64,000 bases of DNA from an uncultured Candidatus Saccharibacteria bacterium (GTDB taxonomy: Bacteria; Patescibacteriota; Doudnabacteria; UBA920), in the NCBI GenBank assembly GCA_964490395.1, contig CAZBAS010000001.1, positions 147,815-211,814 of the forward strand, read 5' to 3'. Of the stretch, positions 18,252 to 34,973 are shown in pieces (position 1 is the first letter of the stretch; the number at the start of each line of letters is the position of its first letter). The translations under genes and the position numbers were made by a program. The notes beneath the pieces are model-generated. The model did no database searches. It worked only from the letters and a program-made list of their open reading frames with translations, and was not told the origin of the DNA.

Positions 18252-18800
18252 ATGGTACGATTGTTTACACCTATGTCATTCGACCACATACTCTTTTACA
18301 AAATCAACCACTTACCGCATAACGGTTTTCTCAATGGCTTGGCCACACTAGTGAGCTACTCTACGTATTGGGGCGCAGCGTTTATGGTGCTGTGTCTTTT
18401 TAACTTCGCTATGCCAAGCATGGAGCGTAAGCTGCTCGCAAAAGCTGGGGCGCTGGCTATGCTGGTTGCTGGGTTGCTCAACGATGGAGTGTTCCACTTT
18501 TTTATTCATAGAGCGCGGCCCTTTGTAGTTCTTTCAGAGGTTGTAACAGTTGGCTATGCACCGAGCAGCTATTCATTTCCCTCGGGTCATACAGCACTTG
18601 CCTTTGCTATGGCAGCCGCATATTGTATGGTATTTCCTCATCGCCTTGAGTCGTACATCGTGGTGTGCGCCGCGCTATTGGTTGGCTTTTCTAGAATATA
18701 TATGGGAGTGCATTACCCGAGTGATGTACTCGCAGGCATGTTCTTGGGCTCTTTCTGTGGTGTAGTGTGCACTATGTTCGTGCGAAGGTATCTTCCATAA
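18252..18800 (+). CDS. PAP2-family lipid phosphatase
   Basis: KX6RP (IHRARPF), PSGH (SFPSGHT) and SRX5HX3D (SRIYMGVHYPSD) motifs. Confidence 0.7.
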   Translation: MVRLFTPMSFDHILFYKINHLPHNGFLNGLATLVSYSTYWGAAFMVLCLFNFAMPSMERKLLAKAGALAMLVAGLLNDGVFHFFIHRARPFVVLSEVVTVGYAPSSYSFPSGHTALAFAMAAAYCMVFPHRLESYIVVCAALLVGFSRIYMGVHYPSDVLAGMFLGSFCGVVCTMFVRRYLP

Positions 18801-18839: not shown

Positions 18840-19448
18840 ATGGGTATATATACAATAAAACCAAAGTTTCAGCAGTTTCTTTCGCCCGTGACGAACATGT
18901 TTATTCGCCACAAAGTGAGCCCTACAACCATAAATGTGTGGGGTCTGCTATTGTCTCTGTGCGCCGGAGCCTGCTTATATTTTTCGCTCGAGCGACCAGT
19001 GCTTCTGCTTGCTGTGCCTGTTCTGGTATTTGTGCGCACCGCCTTTAATGCGCTCGATGGTCTTGTCTCCCGCAGTCTTGGAGTGGCTTCAAGGTTTGGG
19101 GAAGTGCTTAATGAATTTTTGGACCGCATTTCGGACGCGGCTATTTTCTTTGGGTTGGCACTCGCGCCATTCTCTTACATAGTACTTGGCAGTGTGGTCG
19201 TGATAGTTATTTTACTGAATAGCTACTTAAGTATAGTGAGTAAAGCAGCAGGCGGCTCCCGGCAATACGGGGGAGTCATGGGTAAAGCAGATCGTATGAT
19301 ATATGTAGGACTCATGTCTTTTGTGGTGTTTTTCACAAATAATACACATCTTTGGTATTATTTTTCCTGGTTTATCTTGATTGGTACGTGCATTACCTTG
19401 GTACAGCGCTATAGAGCAACTAAACGAGAACTTGCTACACATGCCTGA
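18840..19448 (+). CDS. CDP-alcohol phosphatidyltransferase
   Basis: DGLVSRSLGVASRFGEVLNEFLDRISD matches D-G-x2-A-R-x8-G-x3-D-x3-D. Confidence 0.7.
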   Translation: MGIYTIKPKFQQFLSPVTNMFIRHKVSPTTINVWGLLLSLCAGACLYFSLERPVLLLAVPVLVFVRTAFNALDGLVSRSLGVASRFGEVLNEFLDRISDAAIFFGLALAPFSYIVLGSVVVIVILLNSYLSIVSKAAGGSRQYGGVMGKADRMIYVGLMSFVVFFTNNTHLWYYFSWFILIGTCITLVQRYRATKRELATHA

Positions 19449-20397
19449 TTCAAACTTTGTAAACCCTTTTGCCAACCCAATATTTATTACTATACTTTTG
19501 CGCACCGCTGCGGTATTGATTGCTGGGTTTGTACTACTCCTGTCTGTAAAAAAGTTCAGAGCAAAAGAGTTGCTCGAGAGCAACATAGGAAAAATATACA
19601 TTGGGTGGCTTGTGCTAGCGCCGCTATACTTGCTCGGTATATTTCTGGGCGGTATTCCCTCGCTCGTAGTACTGTTTGTGCTTACTGGGCTGGCTCTTGG
19701 TGAAGTAGTTCGTTTAGCGCAATTGCCTCGTGTATATTTTGTTACGCTCCTGTTTCTTTCGGTATGGAGTATAGTAGTAGCAAGTTTCTTTTCGGGCTAT
19801 TTTTATAGTCTGCCGTTGTTTTATTTTATTGTCATTACCGGCGTTGCAATCCGTGCGAACGATGCGGCTAAGGGGTTGTATAACGCTGCTGTTTCTTTAT
19901 TTGCGTCCATATGGATAATCTTTGCCTTGAGCCATGGGGTGTTGCTCGGGCATTTGAACAATGAATTTGATACAACCAAATCGCTCCTGGTGCTTATAGT
20001 CTTCGCTACATCGCTGAGCGATATTGGCGCCTATGTATTTGGTAAGTTGTTCCATAAACTGAATTTTCTTGACCAGTATAAAATTGCGTCAAATATAAGT
20101 CCGAATAAGACCTACGTAGGTATTTTAGGTCACGTGTTAGGAGCAGCTGCGGGTATAGCCCTCGTATATTTTGCGGTGCGCGAATATTTACCAGCATATC
20201 ACTGGATAATTTTATCCGTGGTTATGGGAGTCTTTGGTCTGGTGGGAGGGCTCACTAACTCTCTCTTTAAACGGTACTACAACAGCAAAGATAGTAGCCA
20301 TCTTATCCCAGGACATGGTGGGGTGCTTGACCGCATAGACAGCATAACTCGGGTGGTAGTAGTTCTGTACTATTATGTACTACTCTTTCACAAGTAA
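19441..20397 (+). CDS. cdsA: phosphatidate cytidylyltransferase
   Basis: C-terminal signature SLFKRYYNSKDSSHLIPGHGGVLDRIDS. Start re-assigned to the ATG at 19441, which overlaps the upstream stop by 8 nt. Confidence 0.75.
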   Translation: MPDSNFVNPFANPIFITILLRTAAVLIAGFVLLLSVKKFRAKELLESNIGKIYIGWLVLAPLYLLGIFLGGIPSLVVLFVLTGLALGEVVRLAQLPRVYFVTLLFLSVWSIVVASFFSGYFYSLPLFYFIVITGVAIRANDAAKGLYNAAVSLFASIWIIFALSHGVLLGHLNNEFDTTKSLLVLIVFATSLSDIGAYVFGKLFHKLNFLDQYKIASNISPNKTYVGILGHVLGAAAGIALVYFAVREYLPAYHWIILSVVMGVFGLVGGLTNSLFKRYYNSKDSSHLIPGHGGVLDRIDSITRVVVVLYYYVLLFHK

Positions 20398-20733
20398 TGC
20401 CGTTACCACAGCAAAAGCATACGCGCCGTCGTGAGAAATGCTACAGTCTATAGATACAATGTTTTTTGTTAGTTCGGTAGATGCAAAAGAAAGATATGGT
20501 TTGCCGGTTTGTTCGTGGAGGACTTCCATATCGAGCCAGCTGCCAGCTGGTAGGCCAAGCGCCTTACCTGCGGCTTCCTTTACGGCAAATATGCCGGCTG
20601 CATGTTGGGCGTCCGGCCGCAGTAGTTCACTCTTGTGAAATATCTTTTGCACGGCGGTTGTATGTAAAAGCAGAGCAGCTACCCGTTCTACTAGGACAAT
20701 ATCGCACCCAGTACAAACACGTATAGTATTCAT
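20380..20733 (-). CDS. acpS: holo-ACP synthase (4'-phosphopantetheinyl transferase)
   Basis: GCDIVLVERV and FAVKEAAGKALG motifs. ATG at 20733; the track's TTG is at 20745. Confidence 0.7.
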   Translation of the reverse strand: MNTIRVCTGCDIVLVERVAALLLHTTAVQKIFHKSELLRPDAQHAAGIFAVKEAAGKALGLPAGSWLDMEVLHEQTGKPYLSFASTELTKNIVSIDCSISHDGAYAFAVVTALLVKE

Positions 20734-21636
20734 ATGACACCTCAAAAATTATCTGTTAGTAATCCAGCCTACTTCGACGAAAAAAGAAATAGCATAAACC
20801 AAGGTCTGCAAGCTATTTTTGGAGAAGAGCTTCAAAAATACGGTCTGGAAAAATTAGTGCACGCCATGGAGTACACGCTTATGGGGCAGGGCAGGCGTTA
20901 CCGGCCATTGCTCGCTGTAGCAGTATACGAGCTCTTTCATGCTACCAGTGACGTAGTTATACAACCTGCCTGCGCCATTGAGCTTATTCACACGTCTTCC
21001 CTTATGTTAGATGATCTTCCCTGTATGGACAATGCTACTGTCCGGCGGGGCCGTGGGGCGAGCCATGTGGTATTTGGGGAGTCTACGACCATATTGGCCA
21101 GCGCTGCGTTGTTTGCTTCTGCGTTTAAATTGTTTGCAGATATCCACTCGGTAGCCATAAACGATATTGTAGGCCAAGCAGCTGACTCCATAGGGGGGAA
21201 CGGTCTCATTAAGGGACAGTTTATAGATGTAGAGTCTTTCAATACCGTCCAAACCGTAGAAGAGCTCGATGCGTGTTATTACTTAAAAACAGCAGTGCTG
21301 TTCCAGTTGTCTGCAAAGCTCGGAGCCGTCATGGCTGAGGCAACTCCAGATCAGGTTAACCTGCTTGAGCGTATGGGCAGCGAGCTCGGGCTCGCGTACC
21401 AAGTTCGTGATGATATACTCGACGCAACACTTACATTGCAGCAGGCAGGTAAGGATGTTAAAATAGATGCAAAGAATGGCAAGCCAACCTACGTGAGCAT
21501 CTTAGGTTTGGAAGAAGCAACGCGCAGATTCCATGTCATGCTTGCTCAGCTGGAGACAACCATTGCCCTGCTCGAGAAACAAAATTTACACACATCATTT
21601 TTAAAAGATTATTTTCATAGTCTTGCACTTACATAA
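20734..21636 (+). CDS. polyprenyl diphosphate synthase (IspA/GGPPS family)
   Basis: GRRYRP, first DDxxD (MLDDLPCMDN...RRG) and second (VRDDILD) motifs. Confidence 0.75.
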   Translation: MTPQKLSVSNPAYFDEKRNSINQGLQAIFGEELQKYGLEKLVHAMEYTLMGQGRRYRPLLAVAVYELFHATSDVVIQPACAIELIHTSSLMLDDLPCMDNATVRRGRGASHVVFGESTTILASAALFASAFKLFADIHSVAINDIVGQAADSIGGNGLIKGQFIDVESFNTVQTVEELDACYYLKTAVLFQLSAKLGAVMAEATPDQVNLLERMGSELGLAYQVRDDILDATLTLQQAGKDVKIDAKNGKPTYVSILGLEEATRRFHVMLAQLETTIALLEKQNLHTSFLKDYFHSLALT

Positions 21637-21641
21637 ATACT

Positions 21642-22649
21642 ATGGCACAAGAACCATTGGAGGAGTATGTTCAAAGGGCGTATGCCGCTGGACTCAGTTC
21701 TAGTGATATTTCGTTGCAATTAGCCCAGGTAGGGTGGGGGGAAGAGCAGATTGCTGCGGCTTTGCAAAAAACTTCGATTGACGCATCTACTTCTTCCATT
21801 ACGCCGGCTCCGCACGCCCCCACCAACTCAAAGCTAGCAACATATACAACATGGATAACGTGTTTGATAATCATGCGCTTGCTACTCATCCCGTTCCAGT
21901 ATGTATTGGTCTCGCTCATACTCACTCACGACTTTTTCAATTCCGCCTACGCTTTAAATTTCAACACCTTTTCGAACTCGCTGCCGCTGCTCTGGCTTAT
22001 ACCGCTTGGCCTCTTCAGAAAGAAAGATCGCAATGCGTATGTTCTATCTATCATTTTCGCTTCGGTCTTAATGTTCCTAAACATTTTTGGACTCGCATCG
22101 TTTGAGAGCCAGCCTGCGTTTTGGTTTGTCTCGTTTATTTATGTTTTGAGCGGCGCTGCCATTGCTGCTCTGTCAATTCTCTCGCTACGACTGTTGCCAA
22201 AGAAAGTTGAGGCCCAGACAAGCCAGGTCATTGCTGTGCGGCCTTCTGGTGTAAAAATGTGGGAAATTATTTTGGGGGCTATATTTGGGCTCGCCGCGAT
22301 ACTGCCAGCGTTCAGTGGTCTTGCCGGTTCTATGGGCGATCTTATGGATAACGACATGGGCAATCCATTCTTTCCTTTTGCTGTATCATTGGCACTCGGC
22401 GCAGCATTGGGTTGGCTTTGTGCAAAAGGGTTTGCCTTTAGTATTTCTAAAAAGCAGCGAACATTTATGCTGGGCAAAGGTTTGTGGTATGGCGGACTGC
22501 TTGGTGCGGTTGCACAAGTACCACTCTATGGTTTCAGTGCTATATTGCTAATCGCCATGCCCATAGGGGCAATGATCGGCGCAGTTATTGGGCTGTTTGC
22601 CTCCGTGCTTGTGGGATATCTTATGGAGAAGAGTATAGTCGCACGGTAA
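21642..22649 (+). CDS. hypothetical polytopic membrane protein
   Basis: Roughly 80-aa soluble N-terminus followed by multiple Gly-rich TM helices. Confidence 0.35.
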   Translation: MAQEPLEEYVQRAYAAGLSSSDISLQLAQVGWGEEQIAAALQKTSIDASTSSITPAPHAPTNSKLATYTTWITCLIIMRLLLIPFQYVLVSLILTHDFFNSAYALNFNTFSNSLPLLWLIPLGLFRKKDRNAYVLSIIFASVLMFLNIFGLASFESQPAFWFVSFIYVLSGAAIAALSILSLRLLPKKVEAQTSQVIAVRPSGVKMWEIILGAIFGLAAILPAFSGLAGSMGDLMDNDMGNPFFPFAVSLALGAALGWLCAKGFAFSISKKQRTFMLGKGLWYGGLLGAVAQVPLYGFSAILLIAMPIGAMIGAVIGLFASVLVGYLMEKSIVAR

Positions 22650-22652
22650 ATT

Positions 22653-23462
22653 ATGAGCTATGCATTCTTCTGTGAACTAAGTGCCTTGGTGTCGGTCCTG
22701 TATATGTTTGTATACAGCTATAAAAAGCGCGAACTCGCGCTTTTTTGCTTTTTACTATTTGATGCATGGGTCTTTGAATGGGCAATTTTGCATATGCTGC
22801 ACGAAGTCACGTATAGCAACTCATTTTCTACAACTCTCGGAGGTGTTCCTCTTGCCATAATCTGCGGTTGGGCAATATTGCTCTACAGCCTACACGACCA
22901 GTTTCGTCATTCAAAAAGTATCTATAAGAACGCTCTTTCTGTGGCCGTGCTCATGGTGCTTTTGGACTTAGTGCTAGAGCCGGTAGCCGTATATGTAGGT
23001 CTGTGGCAGTGGGGCCATGCTGTAGGGTACTATGGACTGCCTTACAATAATTTCTTTGGCTGGTTCCTATATGCGTTTTTGGTTGTGTTTGCCTTGCGTA
23101 AATTTGGTGCCAGCAGGGGCTTGGCCAAATATATGTATATGTTTAGTTTTATTACCATACTAGGCCTTATACTTGGCCTGCTTTGGTATGTAGTGCCCGT
23201 GGTTGCCCAGTCAGTGGCGTGGTGGTGTGGTTTCGCCGGCATATTGTTACACGTTGTGCGCCAACAGAGCGAGTTACCCAAAAGGCTATTGGGTCTGATG
23301 CTGCTTTTCCCGCTGCTGATATTTCTTACTTCATTTGCAGTCACGGCCCTGCATGCAGAGCAATTTTCCAGTGTGCAGATAGGTGTTTCTCTTTTATGCT
23401 TTATGTGTTGGACATGGCTCATGTTAAGGGGCCGTGCAAAGCCCGTTACTCAGCGATCGTAA
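22653..23462 (+). CDS. hypothetical polytopic membrane protein (possibly lycopene-cyclase-domain/carotenoid-type)
   Basis: 269 aa, 7-8 TM. LDLVLEPVAVYVGLWQW segment. Family assignment is speculative. Confidence 0.3.
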   Translation: MSYAFFCELSALVSVLYMFVYSYKKRELALFCFLLFDAWVFEWAILHMLHEVTYSNSFSTTLGGVPLAIICGWAILLYSLHDQFRHSKSIYKNALSVAVLMVLLDLVLEPVAVYVGLWQWGHAVGYYGLPYNNFFGWFLYAFLVVFALRKFGASRGLAKYMYMFSFITILGLILGLLWYVVPVVAQSVAWWCGFAGILLHVVRQQSELPKRLLGLMLLFPLLIFLTSFAVTALHAEQFSSVQIGVSLLCFMCWTWLMLRGRAKPVTQRS

Positions 23463-24540
23463 ACTTATATACATTGCTATAGCTCGCGGTCATTTCTCTC
23501 TTTGTAAGCTGCGCGGATGCTTCCGGGAAATATATAAACTGCGGTCGAAGCGCGGGTGAAGGAAAAACCTGCGGGGCAAAACTGCGGTAAGAGATAAGCG
23601 CCCCTGGTGCTGCAGTGCGTATAACTGCCTGCCAGAGAGCTTCTTGCCTTGCCTTTGATAAAAATTCTACTACATCGGATAAGGAAAATTTTGTTATAGA
23701 ACGCTCGGGTGTGCGATTGAGCGCTGTGGTGAGCGTGCCATCTACAATGGTTATGGCAGCTGCCCGCGTTTGTAAGAGCGCAAAGTTTTCTTCCTTTAGG
23801 TAGTCTGGACAATGCTGGTTGTCTCTATAGTAGCCAAAAAAGATGAAATGCCAGAAGAAGTTATCTCTCATGGCAACTGTACTAAAGAGTTCACGCTGCT
23901 TAGTTTTATAGAGATCTTTCAGAAAAAATTTGCCTGCGCGCATGCAGTAATACATCTGCCGTGGATGCACACCATAAGGCCACATAGTAGGGGTAGGGAT
24001 GTGCGCGTAAACAAAATTCCACAAGCGTGGCTCTATCTGTGCTGTGTAAAAGTCTCTTTGTGCTGCTGTAGAAGTCATGTCCGCAAAAGTTCGTAGGGTG
24101 TCGCTACCTACTGCTCGGTATATCCACTTACGGAGAAGGGCAAGCCGCGCTAGGGCCCCTACTGTATAGAGCCCTTTTTTAAATATGTGGATATGTGCAT
24201 CCCAAAATTTTTGGCTTTCAGGCGGTAGCGCAGGCCGCAAGCTATCGGTATACAGCTGGGTGTAGGCTGCATGTGTTCCCACTCCAAAGAGCTGCCAAAA
24301 TTCTGCATACGGGAGGGTTTGTACTGCTGCGAGTTTAAGTCTGAGCAAGTGATTTTGCGCGGGGTTGGCATCTACAGCGATAATGCTTTTGGGGCCGGCA
24401 AGAGCGGCATGTAAAATATTGCACCCACCAGACGTGAGCGCAACCAATGTGTCTGCTTCCGTTAGTTCTAAGAGTTCTTTGTCTACAGAAAAATCTTCCC
24501 AGGTTTGGTTATAGACAATCTTTGGCTCGGCCAATTTCAT
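23446..24540 (-). CDS. DUF3419 / BtaA-like protein (SAM:diacylglycerol 3-amino-3-carboxypropyl transferase family), tentative
   Basis: 364 aa. N-terminal IVYNQTWEDFSVDKELL and TSGGCNILHAAL match, as I remember them, the BtaA family N-terminus. Sits inside the lipid cluster. Confidence 0.4.
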   Translation of the reverse strand: MKLAEPKIVYNQTWEDFSVDKELLELTEADTLVALTSGGCNILHAALAGPKSIIAVDANPAQNHLLRLKLAAVQTLPYAEFWQLFGVGTHAAYTQLYTDSLRPALPPESQKFWDAHIHIFKKGLYTVGALARLALLRKWIYRAVGSDTLRTFADMTSTAAQRDFYTAQIEPRLWNFVYAHIPTPTMWPYGVHPRQMYYCMRAGKFFLKDLYKTKQRELFSTVAMRDNFFWHFIFFGYYRDNQHCPDYLKEENFALLQTRAAAITIVDGTLTTALNRTPERSITKFSLSDVVEFLSKARQEALWQAVIRTAAPGALISYRSFAPQVFPSPALRPQFIYFPEASAQLTKREMTASYSNVYKFTIAE

Positions 24541-24569
24541 ACAAGCTGCTCTTGCGATATACTTAGTGT

Positions 24570-25151
24570 ATGCATTATACAGCGCTTGCGCAGTTTGGAA
24601 AATCTAAATTTGGAAAGGGCCTGGCCTTTGTGTGGGGGCTGGCAGAAGGGTTGCTCTTTTTTGTAGTCCCGGATGTATATTTGAGTTTTATCGCTTTGTT
24701 TAGTGTGGCCGGAGGGCTGGTAAGTGTGGCGTACGCGTTGCTTGGCTCACTGTGTAGCGCGGTGATTGTTTACGCGCTCGCGCCCTTTATGGGCGGCATG
24801 TACCATAGAATACTGCTGGCCATACCTGGTATTTCTGAGGCCATGCTTCGTACTGTAACAACCGGGCTTGCGCAGCACGGGGTCCAAAATATTATTGCGG
24901 GTCCATTTAGCGGCATACCATATAAGATTTACTCTGTAGAAGCAGCGCTCCAGCACCTTCCCATTGGCTCGTTCTTGCTGTGGTCTATTCCAGCGCGGCT
25001 TGAGCGCATGCTACCAGTAACCCTGGTCGCACTCGTGCTCGGGTATGTGTTCCAAAAAAATATAAAGAAGTATACTACCTACTGGATACTCGGTTTTTTG
25101 TTGGTATGGGCGCTTATCTATATACAGTACTATTATTCGCTTGGGCAGTAA
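24570..25151 (+). CDS. hypothetical membrane protein (DedA/VTT-like?)
   Basis: 193 aa, 4-5 TM. LLFFVVPDVYLSF resembles the VTT-domain entry motif. Low confidence. Confidence 0.3.
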   Translation: MHYTALAQFGKSKFGKGLAFVWGLAEGLLFFVVPDVYLSFIALFSVAGGLVSVAYALLGSLCSAVIVYALAPFMGGMYHRILLAIPGISEAMLRTVTTGLAQHGVQNIIAGPFSGIPYKIYSVEAALQHLPIGSFLLWSIPARLERMLPVTLVALVLGYVFQKNIKKYTTYWILGFLLVWALIYIQYYYSLGQ

Positions 25152-26436
25152 TTCTAGAAATTATTGGATTGCGTTTTCCCGACGCTGTTTTGAGAAGTTG
25201 CTCTTCTGTTACTTGATCTATGTGTACTGTTGTTCCCAAGAGTCGCTCAAGGCGGCTTTTTATGTCAGTGACACCGTCTTTCGAAAGGGCGTGCTTGCTT
25301 ACTACTTGCATGCGGACTACATCTGCCGACTCCTGTATAAGGCAGAAATCGAGAATGTCTATGTGGCCGGTAAGTAGTAAGTCGTATACCGTATCAAGGA
25401 GGTATGCAGATGTTAGTGTACGGCCATGGGTGAATGTAAATGCATCATTCTTTCTTCCGAGGAACGTGTTTAACACGCGGCCGGTGCGGCCACATGCGCA
25501 GGTGTTGTTTGCATCAATTATTCCCAGGTCACCTTGTTCGTAGCGGATAAATGGCATGGCAAAATTATGCAAGTTTGTGCCAACCAGGTTGCTCGCAGTT
25601 CCTGCGGTTACTGTTTCTATATAACTAATATCTTCCCAGAGGTGGTAGCTCCCTTGTTCACACTCCGCTGCTATCCAGCCTAGTTCTTCTGAAGAATATT
25701 CATCAAGTACCGGACAATTAAAAAACTTCGCCAGGGTAGCGCGCTGCGCTTTGGTTGAAAGTTCGGAGCCAACGCTTATGAGTTTAAGTCGCAAGCTTTG
25801 TGCTTCATCTGCGCTGAGGTGCTGCATGAGGGCGAGCAGGTGAGAGGGGTATGAGCAGATAATAGAAGGTTTTAGCGACAGTATGCTCCTTGCAGTATTT
25901 GCGAGTTCGTTTAGTGTTGGAATAAAGTACGACTTATACAGTCCAAGGAACGACGCTGCTGGGTAAGGCGAAGTATAAATATAGAGACATGTGTCCCATG
26001 GTTTATACGTACCGAGCGAGTTAAGTATGCGAAACCTTCCTAGCGCGTAGCTCCAGGTATCTTTGGGGTTATGCACAATGGTTATAACTTTGCCCGATGA
26101 CCCAGAACTTACCGATGGTATGCATTCACTTTGGTTAACGGTGTCTGAGATGGCCCCTTCAGGGAATGCGTCAATAATTTCCTGTTTGGTTACCGTAGGG
26201 AATTTTTCAAGATCGCTGAGACTGGCAAAGTCTTCCGGACTTACTCCAGCATCCTGGTATTTCCTTCGATAGAGTTCTGTGGTGGAATACGCATGCGCGA
26301 GCAATTTTTTTATTTGCTTTTCTTGATAGGCTTTCGTTGCTGCTGAGCTTCGCCAAGGCCCATGATAAAACCACGGAGCGTGTAGTACCGCCCTGGCTAT
26401 GACTTGTATATATTCAGCCGGAGTGTACGATCTCAT
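25114..26436 (-). CDS. PaaK/F390-synthetase-like adenylate-forming enzyme
   Basis: 440 aa. SSGSSGKVITIV (TSGTTGKP-like) P-loop. ATGA overlap with the upstream fusion gene. Confidence 0.5.
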   Translation of the reverse strand: MRSYTPAEYIQVIARAVLHAPWFYHGPWRSSAATKAYQEKQIKKLLAHAYSTTELYRRKYQDAGVSPEDFASLSDLEKFPTVTKQEIIDAFPEGAISDTVNQSECIPSVSSGSSGKVITIVHNPKDTWSYALGRFRILNSLGTYKPWDTCLYIYTSPYPAASFLGLYKSYFIPTLNELANTARSILSLKPSIICSYPSHLLALMQHLSADEAQSLRLKLISVGSELSTKAQRATLAKFFNCPVLDEYSSEELGWIAAECEQGSYHLWEDISYIETVTAGTASNLVGTNLHNFAMPFIRYEQGDLGIIDANNTCACGRTGRVLNTFLGRKNDAFTFTHGRTLTSAYLLDTVYDLLLTGHIDILDFCLIQESADVVRMQVVSKHALSKDGVTDIKSRLERLLGTTVHIDQVTEEQLLKTASGKRNPIISRITAQANNSTVYR

Positions 26437-28931
26437 AAAGTGGCTACAGCACGCTGAATAAGTTTGGTAATTTCAATATACGAAGCATCTGCTGGTATGT
26501 GCACTGGTTTTCCAAATGTAATATGCGCCGTGCCTTTCGTGGGTAGGGTAGCGCCTCGTGGTAAAATGTGGAAGTTTCCCGATATTTTAATGGGCACCAC
26601 AGGCACTCCCATTTCCTGGGCAATTATACCAATGCCTTTTTTAAATTCGCCTAGCTGCCCAGCTTGACTCCTTGTGCCCTCTGGGTATATGAGCACAGAA
26701 TGCCCGGCATTGAGTAAACTGCCCACATGGCCCAAGCTCTCTCGCACGTTTCCGTCTCTGTCGAGGGGGAATGCGTTAAAAAGTAGCTGCGCCCAGAAGG
26801 CTGTAAATGGGTTTTTAAAAAAATAATCTTTAGCAGCTGCCACACAGAGGTTAGCTCGTATGTGCTGCGGGAGCAAACGGAATATGGTGGGAGTGTCTAA
26901 GTGGCTCTCGTGGTTTGCCACAAGCAGAAATGGACCTCGCGGTAAGTTTGTGGCCGCTCCCTGCGTTCCTTGTAAGGTTTGGAATGACTGGATGGCTAAA
27001 AACAAAAACCATTGCATAACTGCGCGAATTGGTTTTACTATGTGCCATCGTGGCCAGGAAGCTATGTGAATGGCTTTGCTTCTTTGTTCGGAGTGCTGTA
27101 GGAGCTGCATAAGATCGCCAACTGTGCTGGTTTGGGATATGCTCGTTTCTGCTATTTCTATGCCTAACTCATCTTCTATTCTGGAGACTAGCTCTAGTCG
27201 CTTAATAGAGTCTAAATGCAGATCTGTAACAAAATTTGCATTTGGTGCTATGGCCGCGCTCTCCATACCAGTTATTTCGCTTATAATGTGGGTGAGCGGG
27301 TCGGTGCTGACGGGTTTTTGCTGCGCAGATATTGGCGTGGGAGAGTGTTCTTCTGCAATAAGAAATGCTGCTACTTCAGGCCTAAGGATTTTTTTTGTTG
27401 TGGTCCGGGGAAAGTCTGCGAGCGGCCACAATACTAGTTTTTGAATTTGCTGGTGAGATGCTAGGTGGTTGTTTGCGCGCTGCATGATTTCTTCAGGGGA
27501 CGGGGTGTCTGTATCTGTTAACACTGCCGCAACGAGTAAAGTGGATGTGTCTTTTTTTATACCGCACACTACGGCTTCTTTTACTCCTCCAAATTCTCTT
27601 AGTGCTTGTTCTATGTCTTCAGGGTATATGTTCATACCCGAGTCGCTTATAATGGTGTTCTTTTTTCTTCCTTGTATATATACATACCCGTCTGCATCTA
27701 TGGCGCCTACATCGCCAGAGTGAAACCAGCCATTGGCGAACGCGTTTGCAGTGGCCTGCTCATTTTGAAAATATTCACGGGTAAGGTTTGGTCCCTGGAG
27801 CAACAACTCTCCATCGTCCGCGACCTGTACAGATATACCGGGTAGTACCCGGCCAACAGAACGAGGCTTATGAGCCTGGAGCGAACTTGCAGTAATGAGG
27901 GGCGATGCTTCGGTGAGGCCGTATCCCTGAAGGGGGACAATGCCTAGCCTGGTCCAAAACAGCTCAAGGCTTACATCGAGGGGTGCGCCGCCCACGTAAA
28001 ATTCTTTCAGAGATAGACCGAGCTTGGTTCTTATTCGGTGGAAAAGTAGCCTACGTATGGCTACGGGAAAACGTTCTGCCCTGCTGAGTGCCTGCGAAAA
28101 TTGCGTTGTTTTGTGGGCGGCCTCCACAGTTCGCATGATTGAGTTTTTAAGCAATTGCAGCACTGCAGGAACGCACACTATGGAAGTTATGCGTTCGTTT
28201 TGCAGTGCTGCAACCATATACTTTGGTTTTATGGTGTAGGGGTACACAATGCTTGCTCCCCAGAATAAGGGACTAAAAAGACCACCGGTTTGTTCCAGCA
28301 TGTGGCTCAACGGTACCAAGGAAAGGAATTGGTGAGTACTGCTCAGTGGCGCCACCTGTGAAAGCATATATACATCGGAGCAGACGTTTGCATGGGTGAG
28401 CACGACTCCTTTTGGCTCACCCGTACTTCCCGAGCTGAAGACAATTTCTAGTGTATCGTTTGGCTCAATGGTGGGCACGCTAGCAATGGCCGCACTGGGC
28501 AAGCTATCAAAAGGAATATCCTCAATATATACAATGGGTGTATAAGGGCTTGGTGTGAGCGGGGAAAGCGTGTGCGAAGTAAAAATAATTTTTGCACGTG
28601 TCGTACGCGCAATTGTATCTATGAACTCCGGAGTTGAGTTACTGTCCAGGGGCACTACTACCACGCCGAGACTTGCACACGCAAAAAAGATGCAAGACCA
28701 CTCAGGGGAGTTGGGTGTGCGCAGTATAACTGTATCTCCCTTGCGTAGCTGTTGCTCGGCAAGAAAACTGATTGTGCTATCAACTTTTTGTTTTAGCTCG
28801 GTATATGTCCAAACAATTCTTCGAAATTTTCGGTGTTGTATAAATGCTACTTCGGTACCAAAGGCATTGCATGCATTAAGAAGTAGTGCGGGTACTGTAT
28901 GGGGCTGTGTCATATAGGTAGTATATAACAT
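26433..28931 (-). CDS. tri-domain fusion: acyl-AMP ligase (acyl-ACP synthetase) / acyl carrier protein / 1-acylglycerol-3-phosphate O-acyltransferase (PlsC)
   Basis: 832 aa. AMP-binding motifs SSGSTGEPKGV, YGLTE, SGD and GRKKNTII. ACP-like DLHLDSIKRLELVSRIEDELGIEI with a DS phosphopantetheine-attachment Ser. PlsC motifs NHESHLD, FPLDRD, YPEGTRS and VPVVPI. Confidence 0.7.
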   Translation of the reverse strand: MLYTTYMTQPHTVPALLLNACNAFGTEVAFIQHRKFRRIVWTYTELKQKVDSTISFLAEQQLRKGDTVILRTPNSPEWSCIFFACASLGVVVVPLDSNSTPEFIDTIARTTRAKIIFTSHTLSPLTPSPYTPIVYIEDIPFDSLPSAAIASVPTIEPNDTLEIVFSSGSTGEPKGVVLTHANVCSDVYMLSQVAPLSSTHQFLSLVPLSHMLEQTGGLFSPLFWGASIVYPYTIKPKYMVAALQNERITSIVCVPAVLQLLKNSIMRTVEAAHKTTQFSQALSRAERFPVAIRRLLFHRIRTKLGLSLKEFYVGGAPLDVSLELFWTRLGIVPLQGYGLTEASPLITASSLQAHKPRSVGRVLPGISVQVADDGELLLQGPNLTREYFQNEQATANAFANGWFHSGDVGAIDADGYVYIQGRKKNTIISDSGMNIYPEDIEQALREFGGVKEAVVCGIKKDTSTLLVAAVLTDTDTPSPEEIMQRANNHLASHQQIQKLVLWPLADFPRTTTKKILRPEVAAFLIAEEHSPTPISAQQKPVSTDPLTHIISEITGMESAAIAPNANFVTDLHLDSIKRLELVSRIEDELGIEIAETSISQTSTVGDLMQLLQHSEQRSKAIHIASWPRWHIVKPIRAVMQWFLFLAIQSFQTLQGTQGAATNLPRGPFLLVANHESHLDTPTIFRLLPQHIRANLCVAAAKDYFFKNPFTAFWAQLLFNAFPLDRDGNVRESLGHVGSLLNAGHSVLIYPEGTRSQAGQLGEFKKGIGIIAQEMGVPVVPIKISGNFHILPRGATLPTKGTAHITFGKPVHIPADASYIEITKLIQRAVATL

Positions 28932-28977: not shown

Positions 28978-29451
28978 TTAGTCTAGTCCGTAGTTAATTT
29001 CTATATCGTAGTTTGTAATTTTATTCTGCTGCACTGTTGCTGTGCAGAGGTTGTATGATCCATCAAATGTAGTGCAGTATTCCTCTCCTTTTTCTTTTAC
29101 AAATATACTGTAGGTGCCCGGGGCGAGTTCGGTCTTGTAAAAACCTGCACTATCCGATTTTACTGTTTTGACTAGAGGTGCGAGTTCGCGCTGTGCGCCC
29201 TTATCTGGAAATCGTTGTTTTGTAAGTTCTCGTATATACACAGTTCTGGACGCAGGAGTATTCAGGCATGGGTTTTCGTCTGGTGTAGGCTGTTCCGTGA
29301 GGGTTCTGGGCATGCAATTCCCGGTGCGCAGAGTAATTTTTCCGGAAATGCCCTGGGTAATGGGCTTTGAGGATGCATCGCGTTCCAGAAACAAATATCC
29401 GCCTATGCTGAGGCCAATAATGATAACAGCTCCTAATATGTATTTTTGCAT
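28978..29451 (-). CDS. hypothetical membrane-anchored/secreted protein
   Basis: N-terminal TM (ILGAVIIIGLSIGGYLF). 157 aa. Confidence 0.35.
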   Translation of the reverse strand: MQKYILGAVIIIGLSIGGYLFLERDASSKPITQGISGKITLRTGNCMPRTLTEQPTPDENPCLNTPASRTVYIRELTKQRFPDKGAQRELAPLVKTVKSDSAGFYKTELAPGTYSIFVKEKGEEYCTTFDGSYNLCTATVQQNKITNYDIEINYGLD

Positions 29452-29690: not shown

Positions 29691-31037
29691 TTATATACTT
29701 TGCGCGAGTACTTCATCCGGCGTACTACCCGGTGAGTAAGAAGCAAGGTCGTTACCAGACATTTCCCAGGAGCGTTGGATAGGGTCGAGAATTTTCCACG
29801 ACTCAAGGACTTCTTCGCCAGAGGTAAATAGAGCGTGGTCGGACTTTATGGCACTGAAGAGTACTTGTCCATATGGTTCTGGGAGTCCTAGTTCGCGGTC
29901 GCCGAATACAAACTTTACTTTATGTTGGGTAAGCTCATGTTCGTACCCGGGCCGCTTTGCCCAAATGCATAACTCAACGCCTTCGTCTGGCTGCAAACGG
30001 AGTGTTAGCTCCTCTGGCTCTTCACCTGCATCTTTTTTATAAAAAATTCGGATCTCAGTGTATCTACTTTTAAGAGCTTTACCAGTCGTGAGCACAATGG
30101 GCACGCCTGTCCATTTTTCATCTTGCGATTCTAAACGAACAGATGCAAATGTCTCAACCATGCTTTGAGGGTTTTGTACTTCTTCTCTGTAACCTGTATA
30201 TTGCCCGCGGTATGCGAAGTCCGTAATTGCATTCGCGCCGGTGGGGAAGCGTAGTTGCTGTAGCGCTTTAAGCCGTAGCTCTGGCACTTGTTGCATGTTG
30301 CCTTTTGGGGGGGTGTCCATGAGTGCGAGGGCCGCCAGCTGGAGTAGGTGGCTTTGCATAAAGTCTCGGAGGGCACCGGTCTGTTCGTAAAAAAGCGCTC
30401 GGCCTTCTATGCCTATGGCCTCACTAGCGGTAATTTCAATGCGCTCTATGAACTCTTTGTTCCAGGTTCGTTTAAACAGTGGGTTGTATTCCCGAAATAT
30501 AACTAGGTTCTGAGCGGTGTCCCGCGCAAGATAGTGGTCTATGCGGTATATTTGTTCTGAAGTGAAATAGCGATCTATGTGTTCTATAAGATCCTTGGCA
30601 CTTTCCAAATCTGTGCCAAATGGCTTTTCAAGTAAAAGTTTTGTCTGAGGTTTCTTTGCTAAACCGGAGGTGCCCAAGTGCTCTATAATTGGTTTTGAAA
30701 CCTGTGGCGGTACTGAGAGGTAAAAGAGTCGCTGCGGCTGTTGACTAAAAGTATCTCCGAGGGTTTGCAAATAGTTCGTTAGCTTTCCATAATCTTCCTC
30801 ACTTGTTAAGTCCATTTGAAACAATTCAGTGTGTTCGGTAATATATGCGGCATGTTCTGTTTTACTTAGCAATGACTCAACAGTTACATCGCTTTTTCGG
30901 GTAATACCTACAATGCGAAACTCCTCTGGTAGTGCTCCGGCAAGTGCCATTTTACCAATAGCAGGCAACAGCTTTCGCTGCGCTAAGTCACCGGTTATAC
31001 CAATGATTATGAGGATGGTAGGGGAGGCTGAATTCAT
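29691..31037 (-). CDS. zwf: glucose-6-phosphate 1-dehydrogenase
   Basis: ILIIIGITGDLAQRKLLPAI matches the G6PD N-terminal signature GASGDLAKRKLxPAL. RIDHYLARD motif. Confidence 0.85.
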   Translation of the reverse strand: MNSASPTILIIIGITGDLAQRKLLPAIGKMALAGALPEEFRIVGITRKSDVTVESLLSKTEHAAYITEHTELFQMDLTSEEDYGKLTNYLQTLGDTFSQQPQRLFYLSVPPQVSKPIIEHLGTSGLAKKPQTKLLLEKPFGTDLESAKDLIEHIDRYFTSEQIYRIDHYLARDTAQNLVIFREYNPLFKRTWNKEFIERIEITASEAIGIEGRALFYEQTGALRDFMQSHLLQLAALALMDTPPKGNMQQVPELRLKALQQLRFPTGANAITDFAYRGQYTGYREEVQNPQSMVETFASVRLESQDEKWTGVPIVLTTGKALKSRYTEIRIFYKKDAGEEPEELTLRLQPDEGVELCIWAKRPGYEHELTQHKVKFVFGDRELGLPEPYGQVLFSAIKSDHALFTSGEEVLESWKILDPIQRSWEMSGNDLASYSPGSTPDEVLAQSI

Positions 31038-31058
31038 AGAATGAGTAATAATAGAAAT

Positions 31059-31141
31059 GCCTAATACCTAATTTCTAATGTGTGATGAAAGACGGGAGAA
31101 TATTCCGGACATTAGATATTAGGAATTGGAAATTAGACATT
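31059..31141. repeat. family-A palindromic element (CTAAT heptads), copy A2
   Basis: GCCTAATACCTAATTTCTAATG, a 30-nt spacer containing GAATATTC, then ATTAGATATTAGGAATTGGAAATTAGACATT. Upstream of zwf. Confidence 0.7.
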
Positions 31142-31154
31142 GTGTCTTTAACAC

Positions 31155-32057: not shown

Positions 32058-32218
32058 AAAAGTTTATATTTAAATGGTTATGGCATTAAGGTCTTATCAT
32101 TGCCTGAAGTCATCGACGAAGCAATCTAATAATAATTATGTACAAATGTTAGATTGTCACGATCCGATCCAGGCATCGAATCTCGCAATGACAGAGCAGA
32201 GAAAGATGGCTCTATTTT

Positions 32219-32884: not shown

Positions 32885-32933
32885 ACGTATATAGGTATTC
32901 TACAAGGTATTATTGGAGTTGGCTATTGGCAGT

Positions 32934-33059: not shown

Positions 33060-33113
33060 TTAGGCGCCTAGGGCCATCTTTGGTATGCTTACTTATACAG
33101 AACAATACACTTT

Positions 33114-34841: not shown

Positions 34842-34973
34842 GTCTGGCGTTATGGCGTATAGTACACACAGGGGGCGACGTGCCCCCTTTTAGTATGCGC
34901 AAATAGGGTCGCTGCGCAGTGGTATAGTAGCTTGGCCAAATTGTACGACCCGTAATGCAGTCCCCGAAATTTT

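What the first reader, a model, noticed from the sequence alone, without database searches (positions are those of the whole stretch)
26433..28931. Single polypeptide fusing an acyl-AMP ligase, an acyl carrier protein and a PlsC-type acyltransferase
Read directly from the sequence: AMP-binding motifs (SSGSTGEPKGV, YGLTE, SGD, GRKKNTII), then DLHLDSIKRLELVSRIEDELGIEI (ACP with a DS attachment Ser), then NHESHLD / FPLDRD / YPEGTRS (PlsC). E. coli Aas has the opposite domain order and uses ACP in trans. This arrangement would activate a free fatty acid, load it on its own carrier and transfer it to a lysolipid in one enzyme. I am not aware of this exact order being characterised.
Basis: partly seen in the sequence, partly recalled or inferred. 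Interest (0 to 1): 0.7.

Follow-up and report, generated by a model that had tools for sequence, protein, structure and literature searches.

The report
Fused fatty-acid ligase–ACP–PlsC acyltransferase
A candidate-phyla-radiation bacterium encodes one 832-residue enzyme that appears able to activate a free fatty acid, carry it on its own built-in carrier domain and attach it to a glycerolipid, which could explain how bacteria that reportedly cannot make fatty acids still build membranes.

Summary
Window 26433-28931 (-) is one intact 832-aa ORF with AMP-binding, PP-binding and PlsC-type Acyltransferase domains, all above Pfam cut-offs. The carrier serine (S575) and the acyltransferase HX4D motif are invariant in 54 relatives from more than 10 phyla. 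It is not a frameshift artefact: 399 clusters (50% identity) match the ACP-AT didomain. Most full-length ones among the 150 listed are about 780-880 aa, with the didomain at the C-terminus.

The order ACS-ACP-AGPAT is already described in Myxococcus ElbD, which carries an extra N-terminal reductase domain, and reductase-less homologues have been noted but not characterised.

New here is the gene context. The window comes from a Patescibacteria (CPR) genome. In the window's clade (mostly CPR) the gene clusters with AcpS, CdsA and a CDP-alcohol phosphatidyltransferase, and AcpS abuts it in seven loci.

Best reading: a self-contained route from exogenous fatty acid to phosphatidic acid or another phospholipid, with a dedicated AcpS. 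The acceptor lipid and the activities are inferred, not shown. AcpS is 5.7 kb away in this window, not adjacent.

I rate it a new variant of a known kind, of moderate to high interest.

The parts
26433..28931 (-). Whole gene: 832-aa ligase-ACP-acyltransferase fusion. The database copy P0001 starts 6 codons later and is 826 aa.
   Evidence: Single ORF; three Pfam domains above cut-off; 100% match to P0001 on a 357,935-bp NCBI contig.
27768..28871 (-). Adenylation (AMP-binding) N-terminal domain, residues 21-388, with P-loop 166-176 and YGLTE 337-341.
27372..27659 (-). Adenylation C-terminal subdomain, residues 425-520, with the A10 lysine K514 just after the GRKKN motif.
   Evidence: AMP-binding_C and AMP-binding_C_3 hits. 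K514 is conserved in 52 of 54, R422 and D407 in 54 of 54.
27099..27296 (-). Acyl carrier domain, residues 546-611. The phosphopantetheine attachment Ser575 is the codon at 27207-27209.
   Evidence: PP-binding 46.1 bits. Closest to FAS-type ACPs (AcpM 7.7e-11; NCBIfam ACP models 1e-12 to 1e-13). S575 is invariant in 54 of 54. DSI verified.
26988..27038 (-). Predicted hydrophobic or amphipathic helix, residues 632-648, between the carrier and the AT core. It may be a membrane-association element like the N-terminal helices of PlsC.
   Evidence: AlphaFold2 secondary structure H632-648, pLDDT about 93. The membrane role is inferred from the sequence KPIRAVMQWFLFLAIQS.
26445..26951 (-). PlsC-type acyltransferase domain, residues 661-829. 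The HX4D motif NHESHLD lies at 26895-26915.
   Evidence: PF01553 E 2.7e-25. The best solved homologue is T. maritima PlsC 5KYM at 8.2e-17 over residues 660-829. H674 and D679 are invariant in 54 of 54. Motif verified.
25114..26436 (-). PaaK/CapK/F390-synthetase-like adenylate-forming enzyme. It is translationally coupled to the fusion gene (ATGA overlap) and is lineage-specific.
   Evidence: NCBIfam weak hits; stop/start overlap. It sits next to the fusion gene only in the window, L081 and L085. Elsewhere it belongs to a separate lipid-related module.
20380..20745 (-). AcpS-type 4'-phosphopantetheinyl transferase, the presumed activator of the carrier domain.
   Evidence: Pfam ACPS and NCBIfam holo-ACP synthase hits. 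Orthologues directly abut the fusion gene in L004, L005, L010, L013, L051, L082 and L084.
19381..20397 (+). CdsA (CDP-diglyceride synthetase), which consumes phosphatidic acid.
   Evidence: Pfam CTP_transf_1 E 2.8e-40. Syntenic with the fusion gene in L081, L082, L084, L085, L005 and L002.
18840..19448 (+). CDP-alcohol phosphatidyltransferase (head-group attachment).
   Evidence: Pfam E 3e-07; same synteny as CdsA; also next to the fusion gene in Uhrbacteria L010.
18252..18800 (+). PAP2-family lipid phosphatase at the edge of the lipid gene island.
   Evidence: Pfam PAP2 E 1.9e-23; conserved in L081 and L085.
20734..25151 (.). Lineage-specific genes lying between AcpS and the PaaK-like gene: polyprenyl synthase, a hypothetical membrane protein, Caroten_synth, DUF3419 (BtaA-like) and a DedA/VTT-like protein. 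Together with the PaaK-like gene they form the block that separates the fusion gene from AcpS.
   Evidence: Pfam. The block is present in L081 and L085 and absent from the compact loci L082 and L084, where AcpS follows the fusion gene directly.

Best explanation
The gene encodes a self-contained fatty-acid salvage acyltransferase for membrane phospholipid assembly. Step 1: the FadD13/ACSL-like adenylation domain converts a free, probably long-chain, fatty acid plus ATP to acyl-AMP. Step 2: the acyl group is passed to the phosphopantetheine arm on Ser575 of the enzyme's own ACP domain, not to CoA or a free ACP. The arm is installed by the AcpS encoded in the same lipid gene island. Step 3: the C-terminal PlsC-type domain (His674/Asp679) takes the acyl group from the tethered acyl-ACP and esterifies a glycerolipid acceptor at the membrane. 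The most likely acceptor is 1-acyl-glycerol-3-phosphate, giving phosphatidic acid. The neighbouring CdsA and CDP-alcohol phosphatidyltransferase then convert phosphatidic acid to phospholipid. What is shown here: domain identities, conservation of catalytic residues, the fixed architecture and the synteny. What is inferred: substrate class, in-cis transfer, acceptor identity, and the physiological role as a substitute for FASII-made acyl-ACP in a CPR bacterium.
For: All three domains score above Pfam cut-offs. Catalytic residues are invariant or nearly so across 54 members from more than 10 phyla: T170, E341, D407 and R422 in 54 of 54, K514 in 52 of 54, the carrier S575 in 54 of 54, and H674 and D679 in 54 of 54. 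The carrier resembles FAS-type ACPs, the client type of AcpS, rather than NRPS carriers. AcpS lies within 13 nt of the fusion gene on the same strand in seven loci labelled as different lineages: Dependentiae, Uhrbacteria, Harrisonbacteria, an unnamed MAG (L084), Spirochaetia, an Acidimicrobiaceae-labelled MAG and a 'Woesearchaeota'-labelled MAG. It is sometimes upstream and sometimes downstream, so the adjacency survives rearrangement. CdsA and a CDP-alcohol phosphatidyltransferase flank the gene in Harrisonbacteria, L084, L005, TA06 and the window lineage. In Uhrbacteria the neighbours are a CDP-alcohol phosphatidyltransferase and a DAGK_cat lipid kinase. The AT domain's best solved homologue is PlsC from T. 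maritima (8.2e-17). Motifs I to IV (HX4D, FPLDR, EGTR, VPVVP) are intact in this protein and in its 30 closest relatives. [quoted passage not shown] In ElbD, the related multidomain enzyme, the ACS and ACP activities were demonstrated in vitro (PMC9131029). EF-P places the window in Patescibacteria (89% identity to Candidatus Doudnabacteria), a group reported to lack lipid synthesis pathways and ACP machinery (PMC7242380). No free-standing ACP gene is detectable in the window. The AlphaFold2 model is confident (pLDDT 85.3, pTM 0.83) with a flexible linker at 531-541 before the carrier.
Against: No biochemical data exist for this family. For ElbD itself no acyltransferase activity could be detected in vitro (PMC9131029). 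The acceptor is unknown. TIGR00530 (AGP acyltransferase) scores 69 bits, below its 103-bit cut-off. The motif II Arg and the motif III Thr-Arg are not conserved in the distant Acidobacteriota clade (R725 in only 24 of 54), so acceptors may differ between clades. Most members occur in Chloroflexota and Acidobacteriota, phyla whose members generally have FASII (my own knowledge, not checked in these genomes), with no lipid-gene synteny. The family is therefore not specific to salvage-dependent organisms. I could not examine the rest of this genome, so the absence of FASII, acpP, plsX/Y or a second PlsC is not shown for this organism. The A domain could also release acyl-CoA. The translationally coupled PaaK-like enzyme has no place in this scheme.
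Confidence: 0.6

Rival explanations
1. It is an Aas-like lysophospholipid re-acylation (repair or remodelling) enzyme. The chemistry is the same, but the acceptor is an imported or damage-derived lysophospholipid such as lyso-PE or lyso-PG rather than LPA, and the role is membrane maintenance or uptake of host lysolipids.
For: It is functionally analogous to E. coli Aas, which joins a PlsC-type AT to an acyl-ACP synthetase (NCBIfam Aas models hit both halves). Lysolipids are enriched in CPR-size cell fractions (PMC7242380). In Saccharibacteria L014 and the related L013 an MFS transporter lies directly downstream on the same strand, reminiscent of lplT-aas. A Melainabacteria locus (L068) has the classical MFS-AT-AAS fusion in the same CdsA/CDP-OH neighbourhood.
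Against: There is no MFS or LplT gene next to the gene in the window. The L013/L014 MFS proteins gave no LplT hit in NCBIfam, only generic MFS families. The recurrent partners CdsA and the CDP-alcohol transferase act on PA and CDP-DAG, which points to PA as the product. Aas family cut-offs are missed by far: 23.7 bits (C-terminal half) against 886 for PRK08043, and 174 bits (full length) against 1221 for PRK08633.
Confidence: 0.2
2. It makes a non-phospholipid product. The A-ACP pair acts as an NRPS-like loading module, and the AT domain acylates an aminolipid, a betaine-lipid precursor or another small molecule. In this lineage it may work with the coupled PaaK-like ligase and the DUF3419/Caroten_synth genes.
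For: The gene is translationally coupled to a PaaK/CapK-like adenylating enzyme. DUF3419 (BtaA-like), Caroten_synth and polyprenyl synthase genes lie in the same island. The PlsC family includes lyso-ornithine-lipid acyltransferases, which give weak hits (OlsA/OlsF, E about 1e-3). AT motifs II and III vary across the family.
Against: The PaaK-like/DUF3419/Caroten_synth module is an independent unit that also occurs without the fusion gene, in Leptospirales L086. It is absent from the compact CPR loci, where only AcpS, CdsA and the CDP-OH transferase accompany the fusion gene. The PaaK-like gene was not found next to any of the 80 other family loci. The carrier is FAS-ACP-like, not NRPS-like.
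Confidence: 0.1
3. It is an ElbD-type ether-lipid biosynthesis enzyme: a reductase-less ElbD that supplies acyl or alkyl precursors for alkyl-glycerol ether lipids.
For: It has the same ACS-ACP-AGPAT order as ElbD. FAR-less and split ElbD homologues have been reported in other phyla (PMC9131029; bioRxiv 10.64898/2026.06.23.733905).
Against: No reductase (NAD_binding_4/FAR) domain is present in the protein. There are no elbB (HAD), elbC or elbE (NAD-dependent epimerase) homologues or AGPS among the neighbours. None of the 150 best didomain representatives is of ElbD size. Without a reductase there is no route from the acyl thioester to an aldehyde or alcohol.
Confidence: 0.05
4. It is an artefact: two or three genes joined by an assembly or sequencing error, or a decaying pseudogene.
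For: None found.
Against: The ORF is intact. An identical protein was recovered independently (P0001 and cluster members from the NCBI and Logan sources). The same fusion occurs at 36-72% identity in hundreds of clusters. The catalytic residues of all domains are conserved.
Confidence: 0.01

Closest known systems
ElbD of Myxococcus xanthus (MXAN_1528; ether lipid biosynthesis multidomain enzyme)
   Same: Same order of the three domains, acyl-CoA-synthetase-like A domain, ACP, then AGPAT-like acyltransferase, in one polypeptide. For ElbD, fatty acid activation and loading of the in-cis ACP were shown in vitro (PMC9131029).
   Different: ElbD has an additional N-terminal FAR1-like reductase domain and sits in the elbABCDE operon. 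The window protein has no reductase and no elb neighbours, and is linked instead to AcpS, CdsA and a CDP-alcohol phosphatidyltransferase. A direct sequence comparison with ElbD could not be made.
Aas of E. coli and related LplT-Aas (MFS-AT-AAS) fusions: acyl-ACP synthetase / 2-acyl-GPE acyltransferase
   Same: It couples ATP-dependent activation of a free fatty acid to a PlsC-type acyltransferase that re-acylates a lysophospholipid, with an ACP-bound thioester as intermediate. The A and AT halves are homologous.
   Different: The domain order is opposite (AT N-terminal). Aas has no integrated carrier and uses free ACP. It is partnered with the LplT transporter. The window protein misses the Aas NCBIfam cut-offs by a wide margin. 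A genuine MFS-AT-AAS fusion was seen in L068 for comparison.
PlsC (1-acyl-sn-glycerol-3-phosphate acyltransferase), e.g. T. maritima PlsC, PDB 5KYM
   Same: The C-terminal domain aligns over about 170 residues at E 8.2e-17, with HX4D, FPxxR, EGTR and VPVVP motifs. A hydrophobic helix precedes the catalytic core.
   Different: PlsC is a stand-alone enzyme of about 250 aa that takes acyl-ACP or acyl-CoA from solution. Here the donor is presumably tethered in cis. The TIGR00530 score is below its cut-off.
Soluble acyl-ACP synthetases (AasS of Vibrio harveyi, cyanobacterial Aas) and A-T didomain loading modules (FAAL-ACP)
   Different: Those enzymes hand the acyl-ACP to separate downstream enzymes (FASII, PlsX/PlsC or a PKS). 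Here the consuming acyltransferase is fused.

Membership tests
ANL adenylate-forming superfamily (fatty-acid ligase type) | Pfam AMP-binding profile above the gathering score | tested here: met
   224.7 bits against a cut-off of 29.9.
ANL adenylate-forming superfamily (fatty-acid ligase type) | Core motifs: A3 P-loop SSGSTGEPKG, A5 YGLTE, A7 SGD, A8 GRKKN, A10 Lys | tested here: met
   All are present. T170, E341, D407 and R422 are invariant in 54 of 54 and K514 in 52 of 54.
ANL adenylate-forming superfamily (fatty-acid ligase type) | Long-chain fatty acid as substrate | tested here: inconclusive
   The best matches are fatty-acyl ligases: FadD13 at 4e-46 and NF004837 at 262.8 bits, below its cut-off of 476. 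Specificity cannot be read from sequence.
Acyl carrier protein / PP-binding domain | PF00550 profile above the gathering score | tested here: met
   46.1 bits against 20.8. NCBIfam ACP models score 43-48 bits, below their stand-alone cut-offs of 66-84.
Acyl carrier protein / PP-binding domain | Conserved Ser in a D/S-S-[LI] motif at the start of helix 2 | tested here: met
   D574-S575-I576. S575 is invariant in 54 of 54. Helix 575-589 is present in the model.
Acyl carrier protein / PP-binding domain | Post-translational phosphopantetheinylation | not testable with these tools
   Only indirect evidence: AcpS in the same island and directly adjacent in 7 related loci.
PlsC / LPLAT acyltransferases (PF01553) | Profile above the gathering score, and the HX4D catalytic dyad | tested here: met
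   89.1 bits against 23. NHESHLD verified. H674 and D679 are invariant in 54 of 54.
PlsC / LPLAT acyltransferases (PF01553) | Motifs II (FxxR), III (EGTR) and IV (hydrophobic-P) | tested here: met
   FPLDR 721-725, EGTR 751-754 and VPVVP 776-780 are present. R725 is invariant in the 30 closest members but present in only 24 of 54 family-wide.
PlsC / LPLAT acyltransferases (PF01553) | NCBIfam TIGR00530 (1-acylglycerol-3-phosphate O-acyltransferase) trusted cut-off | tested here: not met
   69.4 bits against a cut-off of 102.95. It is a PlsC-superfamily domain but cannot be named an LPA acyltransferase by this model.
PlsC / LPLAT acyltransferases (PF01553) | Lysophosphatidic acid as acceptor | not testable with these tools
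   Inferred only from synteny with CdsA and the CDP-alcohol phosphatidyltransferase.
Aas (bifunctional acyl-ACP synthetase / 2-acyl-GPE acyltransferase) | Domain order AT (N-terminal) then synthetase (C-terminal), with no built-in carrier | tested here: not met
   The order here is A, ACP, AT. Aas models place the AT at model positions 19-140 of 719 and 434-554 of 1147, with the ligase after it.
Aas (bifunctional acyl-ACP synthetase / 2-acyl-GPE acyltransferase) | NCBIfam equivalog cut-offs (PRK08043, PRK08633, PRK06814) | tested here: not met
   PRK08043: 23.7 bits against 886, scored on the C-terminal half only. PRK08633: 174 bits against 1221, and PRK06814: 152 bits against 1349, both on the full-length protein.
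Aas (bifunctional acyl-ACP synthetase / 2-acyl-GPE acyltransferase) | Genetic or physical partnership with the lysophospholipid flippase LplT (MFS) | tested here: not met
   No MFS gene lies next to the gene in the window. The MFS genes adjacent in L013 and L014 gave no LplT hit in NCBIfam.
ElbD (myxobacterial ether-lipid multidomain enzyme) | ACS-ACP-AGPAT order in one polypeptide | tested here: met
   with the architecture of ElbD as described in PMC9131029.
ElbD (myxobacterial ether-lipid multidomain enzyme) | N-terminal FAR1-like reductase domain | tested here: not met
   There is no reductase or NAD-binding Pfam hit and the protein begins with the A domain at residue 21. Family members are about 780-860 aa, not ElbD size.
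ElbD (myxobacterial ether-lipid multidomain enzyme) | elb operon context (ElbB HAD phosphohydrolase, ElbC, ElbE NAD-dependent epimerase) | tested here: not met
   The neighbours are a PaaK-like enzyme, DedA-like, DUF3419, Caroten_synth, polyprenyl synthase, AcpS, CdsA, CDP-OH transferase and PAP2. None is HAD or epimerase.
ElbD (myxobacterial ether-lipid multidomain enzyme) | Orthology by sequence or phylogeny to ElbD (UniProt Q1DC43) | not tested

The most novel reading that the evidence does not exclude
In CPR/Patescibacteria, and perhaps in Dependentiae, which are reported to lack FASII and free ACP, this tri-domain enzyme together with a dedicated AcpS may be the main or only entry point of scavenged fatty acids into membrane phospholipid. 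It would form a minimal, ACP-in-cis phosphatidic-acid assembly line (fusion enzyme, AcpS, CdsA, CDP-alcohol phosphatidyltransferase) that replaces the canonical PlsX/PlsY/PlsC plus acyl-ACP supply. It would answer the open question of how these ultra-small symbionts build fatty-acid-based membranes without a known lipid pathway. It would also mean that earlier reports of 'no ACP-dependent machinery in CPR' overlooked an ACP hidden inside a protein annotated as a long-chain acyl-CoA synthetase.
Probability: 0.35. Interest if true: 0.8.

Novelty: new variant of a known kind. Interest (0 to 1): 0.55.

Why it matters
CPR bacteria make up a large share of bacterial diversity and have fatty-acid-based membranes, yet they have no recognised pathway to make or assemble them. 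Published genome surveys stated that ACP-producing or ACP-requiring enzymes were not found in them (PMC7242380).

This gene is a concrete, testable candidate for the missing step. It is a single enzyme that needs only ATP, a free fatty acid and a lysolipid or glycerol-phosphate acceptor. Its priming enzyme (AcpS) and the next two pathway enzymes are encoded beside it.

The family is large: 399 clusters at 50% identity. It spans more than 10 phyla and is annotated only as 'AMP-binding protein' or 'long-chain acyl-CoA synthetase', so its function is being missed in metabolic reconstructions.

It would also be a compact module for synthetic-cell phospholipid synthesis from fed fatty acids. The caveat is that the chemistry is a recombination of known activities (Aas, ElbD, PlsC), not a new reaction.

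Tried and rejected
1. Frameshift or fusion artefact: rejected, because the ORF is intact and the architecture is conserved.

2. Membership in Aas: rejected on domain order, NCBIfam cut-offs and the lack of LplT.

3. Membership in ElbD proper: rejected because there is no reductase domain and no elb context. Direct comparison with ElbD was not possible.

4. The PaaK-like neighbour as an obligatory partner: rejected. tblastn found it next to none of the 80 other family loci. It travels with DUF3419 and Caroten_synth without the fusion gene in Leptospirales L086, and sits in another lipid-gene operon in L087.

5. Exact look-up of the window protein's contig found nothing on record. Taxonomy was instead inferred from EF-P homologues.

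6. Rfam scan of the window found only one tRNA, so there was no rRNA for taxonomy.

8. Literature searches for this architecture in CPR or Patescibacteria found no paper assigning it a role. The original ElbD paper is not held.

9. LplT-like identity of the MFS genes downstream in L013 and L014: not supported by NCBIfam.

10. Search for a free ACP in the window: none found. By eye I saw no FASII, PlsX or PlsY genes in the 64 kb. This says nothing about the rest of the genome.

Full report
**1. Observation**

Window 26433-28931 on the minus strand is a single uninterrupted ORF of 832 codons.

Pfam places four domains, all above the curated cut-offs:
- AMP-binding at residues 21-388 (E 2.1e-66)
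- AMP-binding_C at 440-514
- PP-binding at 546-611 (E 5.7e-12, 46.1 bits against a cut-off of 20.8)
- PlsC-type Acyltransferase PF01553 at 661-784 (E 2.7e-25)

**2. Not an artefact, and a large family**

A search of 5.8 billion proteins returned more than 120 full-length homologues at 36-72% identity. All have the A domain and the AT domain, and nearly all also have the precomputed PP-binding hit.

A filter-free HMMER scan with only the ACP-AT part (303 aa) found 399 representative clusters (50% identity) at E <= 1e-30. Most full-length ones among the 150 listed are about 780-880 aa, with the didomain at the C-terminus. The shorter ones may be fragments.

A scan of one genome per species found the gene in these groups:
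- Chloroflexota (Anaerolineae, Dehalococcoidia)
- many Acidobacteriota
- TA06
- Dependentiae/TM6
- CPR groups (Uhrbacteria, Saccharibacteria, Harrisonbacteria)
- Verrucomicrobiia, Actinomycetota, Nitrosomonas and Spirochaetia
- a Cyanobacteriota-labelled MAG

Across 54 members, conservation is as follows:
- the Ppant serine S575 is invariant
- the acyltransferase dyad H674/D679 is invariant
- A-domain residues T170, E341, D407 and R422 are invariant
- the A10 lysine K514 is present in 52 of 54

All three domains are thus under selection to remain catalytically competent.

**3. What each domain resembles**

[quoted passage not shown] It carries a helical insert of about 45 residues relative to FadD13, at residues 262-306.
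- **Carrier.** It resembles fatty-acid-synthase ACPs (AcpM 7.7e-11; NCBIfam ACP models about 1e-12) rather than NRPS carriers.
- **AT domain.** Its best solved homologue is T. maritima PlsC 5KYM (8.2e-17 over residues 660-829). Motifs I to IV are intact here and in the 30 nearest relatives. The TIGR00530 cut-off is not reached. The motif II arginine is lost in the distant Acidobacteriota clade, so the acceptor may not be uniform across the family.
- **Model.** The AlphaFold2 model is confident (pLDDT 85.3, pTM 0.83). It has a disordered linker at 531-541 before the carrier and a hydrophobic helix at 632-648 before the AT core.

**4. Source organism**

EF-P from the window (62065-62619) is 89% identical to a protein labelled Candidatus Doudnabacteria. 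The other named top hits are Patescibacteria. The closest named homologue of the fusion protein is from Candidatus Harrisonbacteria. The window is therefore from a CPR/Patescibacteria genome.

**5. Gene context**

This is the main new evidence. In the window the gene lies at one end of a lipid gene island. The order is:
- PAP2 phosphatase (18252-18800)
- CDP-alcohol phosphatidyltransferase (18840-19448)
- CdsA (19381-20397)
- AcpS (20380-20745)
- polyprenyl synthase
- a hypothetical membrane protein
- Caroten_synth
- DUF3419
- a DedA-like protein
- a PaaK-like ligase (25114-26436)
- the fusion gene

The same order occurs on contigs carrying the 72% and 48% identical homologues (L081 and L085).

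In Harrisonbacteria (L082) and another small-genome MAG (L084) the island is compact. The fusion gene is followed immediately by AcpS on the same strand, with overlapping or near-overlapping ends. A divergent CdsA plus CDP-alcohol phosphatidyltransferase pair comes next.

An HMM census of 84 loci gave these results:
- AcpS lies within 13 nt of the fusion gene, on the same strand, in seven loci labelled as different lineages. These are L004 Dependentiae, L005, L010 Uhrbacteria, L013, L051 Spirochaetia, L082 and L084.
- AcpS is upstream in four of these loci and downstream in three.
- CdsA and the CDP-OH transferase are adjacent in L082, L084, L005 and TA06 L002.

In Uhrbacteria the neighbours are a CDP-alcohol phosphatidyltransferase and a DAGK_cat lipid kinase. 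A rough NJ tree groups the window with L081, L085, L082, L084, L005 and TA06, which is the clade that has the CdsA synteny.

In Chloroflexota and Acidobacteriota there is no lipid synteny. Eight Chloroflexota loci instead have an adjacent MBL-fold hydrolase.

**6. Mechanism proposed**

1. The A domain adenylates a free fatty acid.
2. The acyl group is transferred to the Ppant arm on Ser575, which AcpS installs.
3. The tethered acyl-ACP delivers it to the PlsC-type domain at the membrane.
4. That domain acylates a glycerolipid acceptor, most probably lysophosphatidic acid. This yields the phosphatidic acid that CdsA and the CDP-alcohol transferase then process.

Shown here are the domains, the conserved catalytic residues, the FAS-type carrier, the AcpS coupling and the CdsA/CDP-OH coupling. 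Inferred are chain length, CoA independence, in-cis transfer and the acceptor.

For the related ElbD, ACS activity and ACP loading were shown in vitro, but no acyltransferase activity was detected (PMC9131029).

CPR bacteria are reported to lack complete lipid pathways and ACP-related machinery, while lysolipids are enriched in their size fraction (PMC7242380). Notably, the Harrisonbacteria homologue carries an isolate label beginning 'CG10_big_fil_rev', which I recognise from my own knowledge as a Crystal Geyser genome, the ecosystem studied in that paper. An ACP hidden inside a protein annotated as 'long-chain acyl-CoA synthetase', plus an AcpS, may therefore have been overlooked.

No free ACP gene is detectable in the window, but I could not inspect the rest of the genome.

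**7. Comparison with known systems**

- **ElbD.** The order ACS-ACP-AGPAT is that of Myxococcus ElbD, which additionally has an N-terminal FAR1-like reductase. Reviews state that ElbD-like homologues in other phyla mostly lack the FAR domain and are uncharacterised (PMC9131029). A split elbD variant that leaves an ORF beginning at the A domain has been described in Poribacteria and Acidobacteriota (bioRxiv 10.64898/2026.06.23.733905). The window protein lacks the reductase and any elb neighbours, so it is not ElbD proper.
- **Aas.** The closest functional analogue is Aas, which has the opposite order, no built-in carrier and an LplT partner. The NCBIfam Aas cut-offs are missed by far. A true MFS-AT-AAS fusion was seen in Melainabacteria L068, interestingly also next to CdsA and a CDP-OH transferase.
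- **Literature.** Searches of the held library found no paper assigning a role to this architecture in CPR.

**8. Rivals**

- **Aas-like re-acylation of imported lysophospholipids (0.2).** An MFS gene directly downstream in Saccharibacteria supports it, although that MFS gave no LplT hit. The CdsA synteny weakens it.
- **A non-phospholipid product involving the coupled PaaK-like ligase (0.1).** The ATGA overlap supports it. However, the PaaK-like/DUF3419/Caroten_synth genes form an independent module found without the fusion gene in Leptospirales. That module is also absent from the compact CPR loci.
- **ElbD-type ether lipid synthesis (0.05).** No reductase is present.
- **Artefact (0.01).**

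**9. Verdict**

The finding is real. The claim of an uncharacterised domain order is only partly right, because ElbD and its FAR-less relatives are on record.

The new element is the conserved AcpS/CdsA/CDP-alcohol-transferase context in CPR and other reduced genomes. It turns the gene into a testable candidate for how these organisms assemble phospholipids from scavenged fatty acids. I rate it a new variant of a known kind, with interest 0.55. If the CPR-salvage reading holds (probability about 0.35), the interest would be about 0.8.

Noticed in passing
window 22653-26436; L081, L085, L086 5511-8738, L087 4007-9296: A PaaK/CapK-like adenylating enzyme, DUF3419 (BtaA-like) and a Caroten_synth (PF04240) protein travel together. 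They are seen in the window lineage and in a Leptospirales MAG. In another lineage the PaaK-like gene shares an operon with a small PF01553 acyltransferase and a CdsA-like gene. This looks like an uncharacterised lipid-modifying module. With the PAP2 phosphatase it might make a DAG-derived (homoserine or betaine-type) lipid, which is speculation.
   Followed up: partly
L013 10453-11700 and L014 10422-11669: In Saccharibacteria (L014) and in an 'Acidimicrobiaceae'-labelled MAG with identical context (L013), an MFS transporter lies directly downstream of the fusion gene on the same strand. This is reminiscent of lplT-aas, but NCBIfam gave only generic MFS matches and no LplT hit. L013 groups with Saccharibacteria in the tree and may be a misbinned contig.
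   Followed up: partly
L068 6729-10205: A Melainabacteria genome ('Clostridium sp. CAG:768') encodes the classical MFS-AT-AAS (LplT-Aas) triple fusion of 1158 aa. It also sits next to CdsA and a CDP-alcohol phosphatidyltransferase. Two different fatty-acid-activating acyltransferase fusions thus occupy the same kind of neighbourhood.
   Followed up: partly
L003, L007, L009, L031, L036, L047, L048, L064 (e.g. L064 7175-7969): In eight Chloroflexota loci a metallo-beta-lactamase-fold hydrolase (PF00753) lies immediately next to the fusion gene. Its role is unknown.
   Followed up: partly
L005 (CAYPFA010000001.1, labelled Candidatus Woesearchaeota archaeon): A MAG labelled as archaeal carries the bacterial-type fusion gene with AcpS, CdsA and a CDP-alcohol transferase in the CPR arrangement. 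This is either a taxonomic mislabel or misbinning, or a transfer of bacterial lipid genes.
   Followed up: no
window 29691-36449: Just upstream of the lipid island lies a carbohydrate block. It holds glucose-6-phosphate dehydrogenase, a 6-phosphogluconate dehydrogenase-like protein, 6-phosphogluconolactonase, an alpha-glucan phosphorylase-like protein and a glycogen synthase. These identifications were made by eye from the translations, not by profile search.
   Followed up: no
window 41913-42620 (-): A 235-aa protein has an N-terminal membrane helix and a C-terminal tail made almost entirely of Gly, Ser and Cys (…SCGGGGSASSCGGGSSCGSSCGGGGCGGGGCGGS). This is unusual low-complexity sequence.
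   Followed up: no
window 8422-10251 (+): A 609-aa secreted-looking protein contains two near-identical cysteine-rich repeats of about 130 residues (FVCPDGQVESGRVEREGAIRCVPCP…). They are separated by a Gly/Ser/Thr-rich linker of about 25 residues (SGGTGGTGQGGSTGGSGSGGSAGGS) within a longer spacer.
   Followed up: no
window 15-4014 (+): A nucleotide-metabolism cluster holds two dCTP deaminase-like paralogues, a dUTPase, thymidylate kinase and a long (556-aa) ThyX-like protein. It fits a salvage-dependent CPR lifestyle. Identified by eye only.
   Followed up: no
window 28978-29451 (-): A 157-aa protein with an N-terminal hydrophobic segment lies directly upstream of the fusion gene on the same strand. 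It has no Pfam or NCBIfam match and was not found next to other family members.
   Followed up: partly
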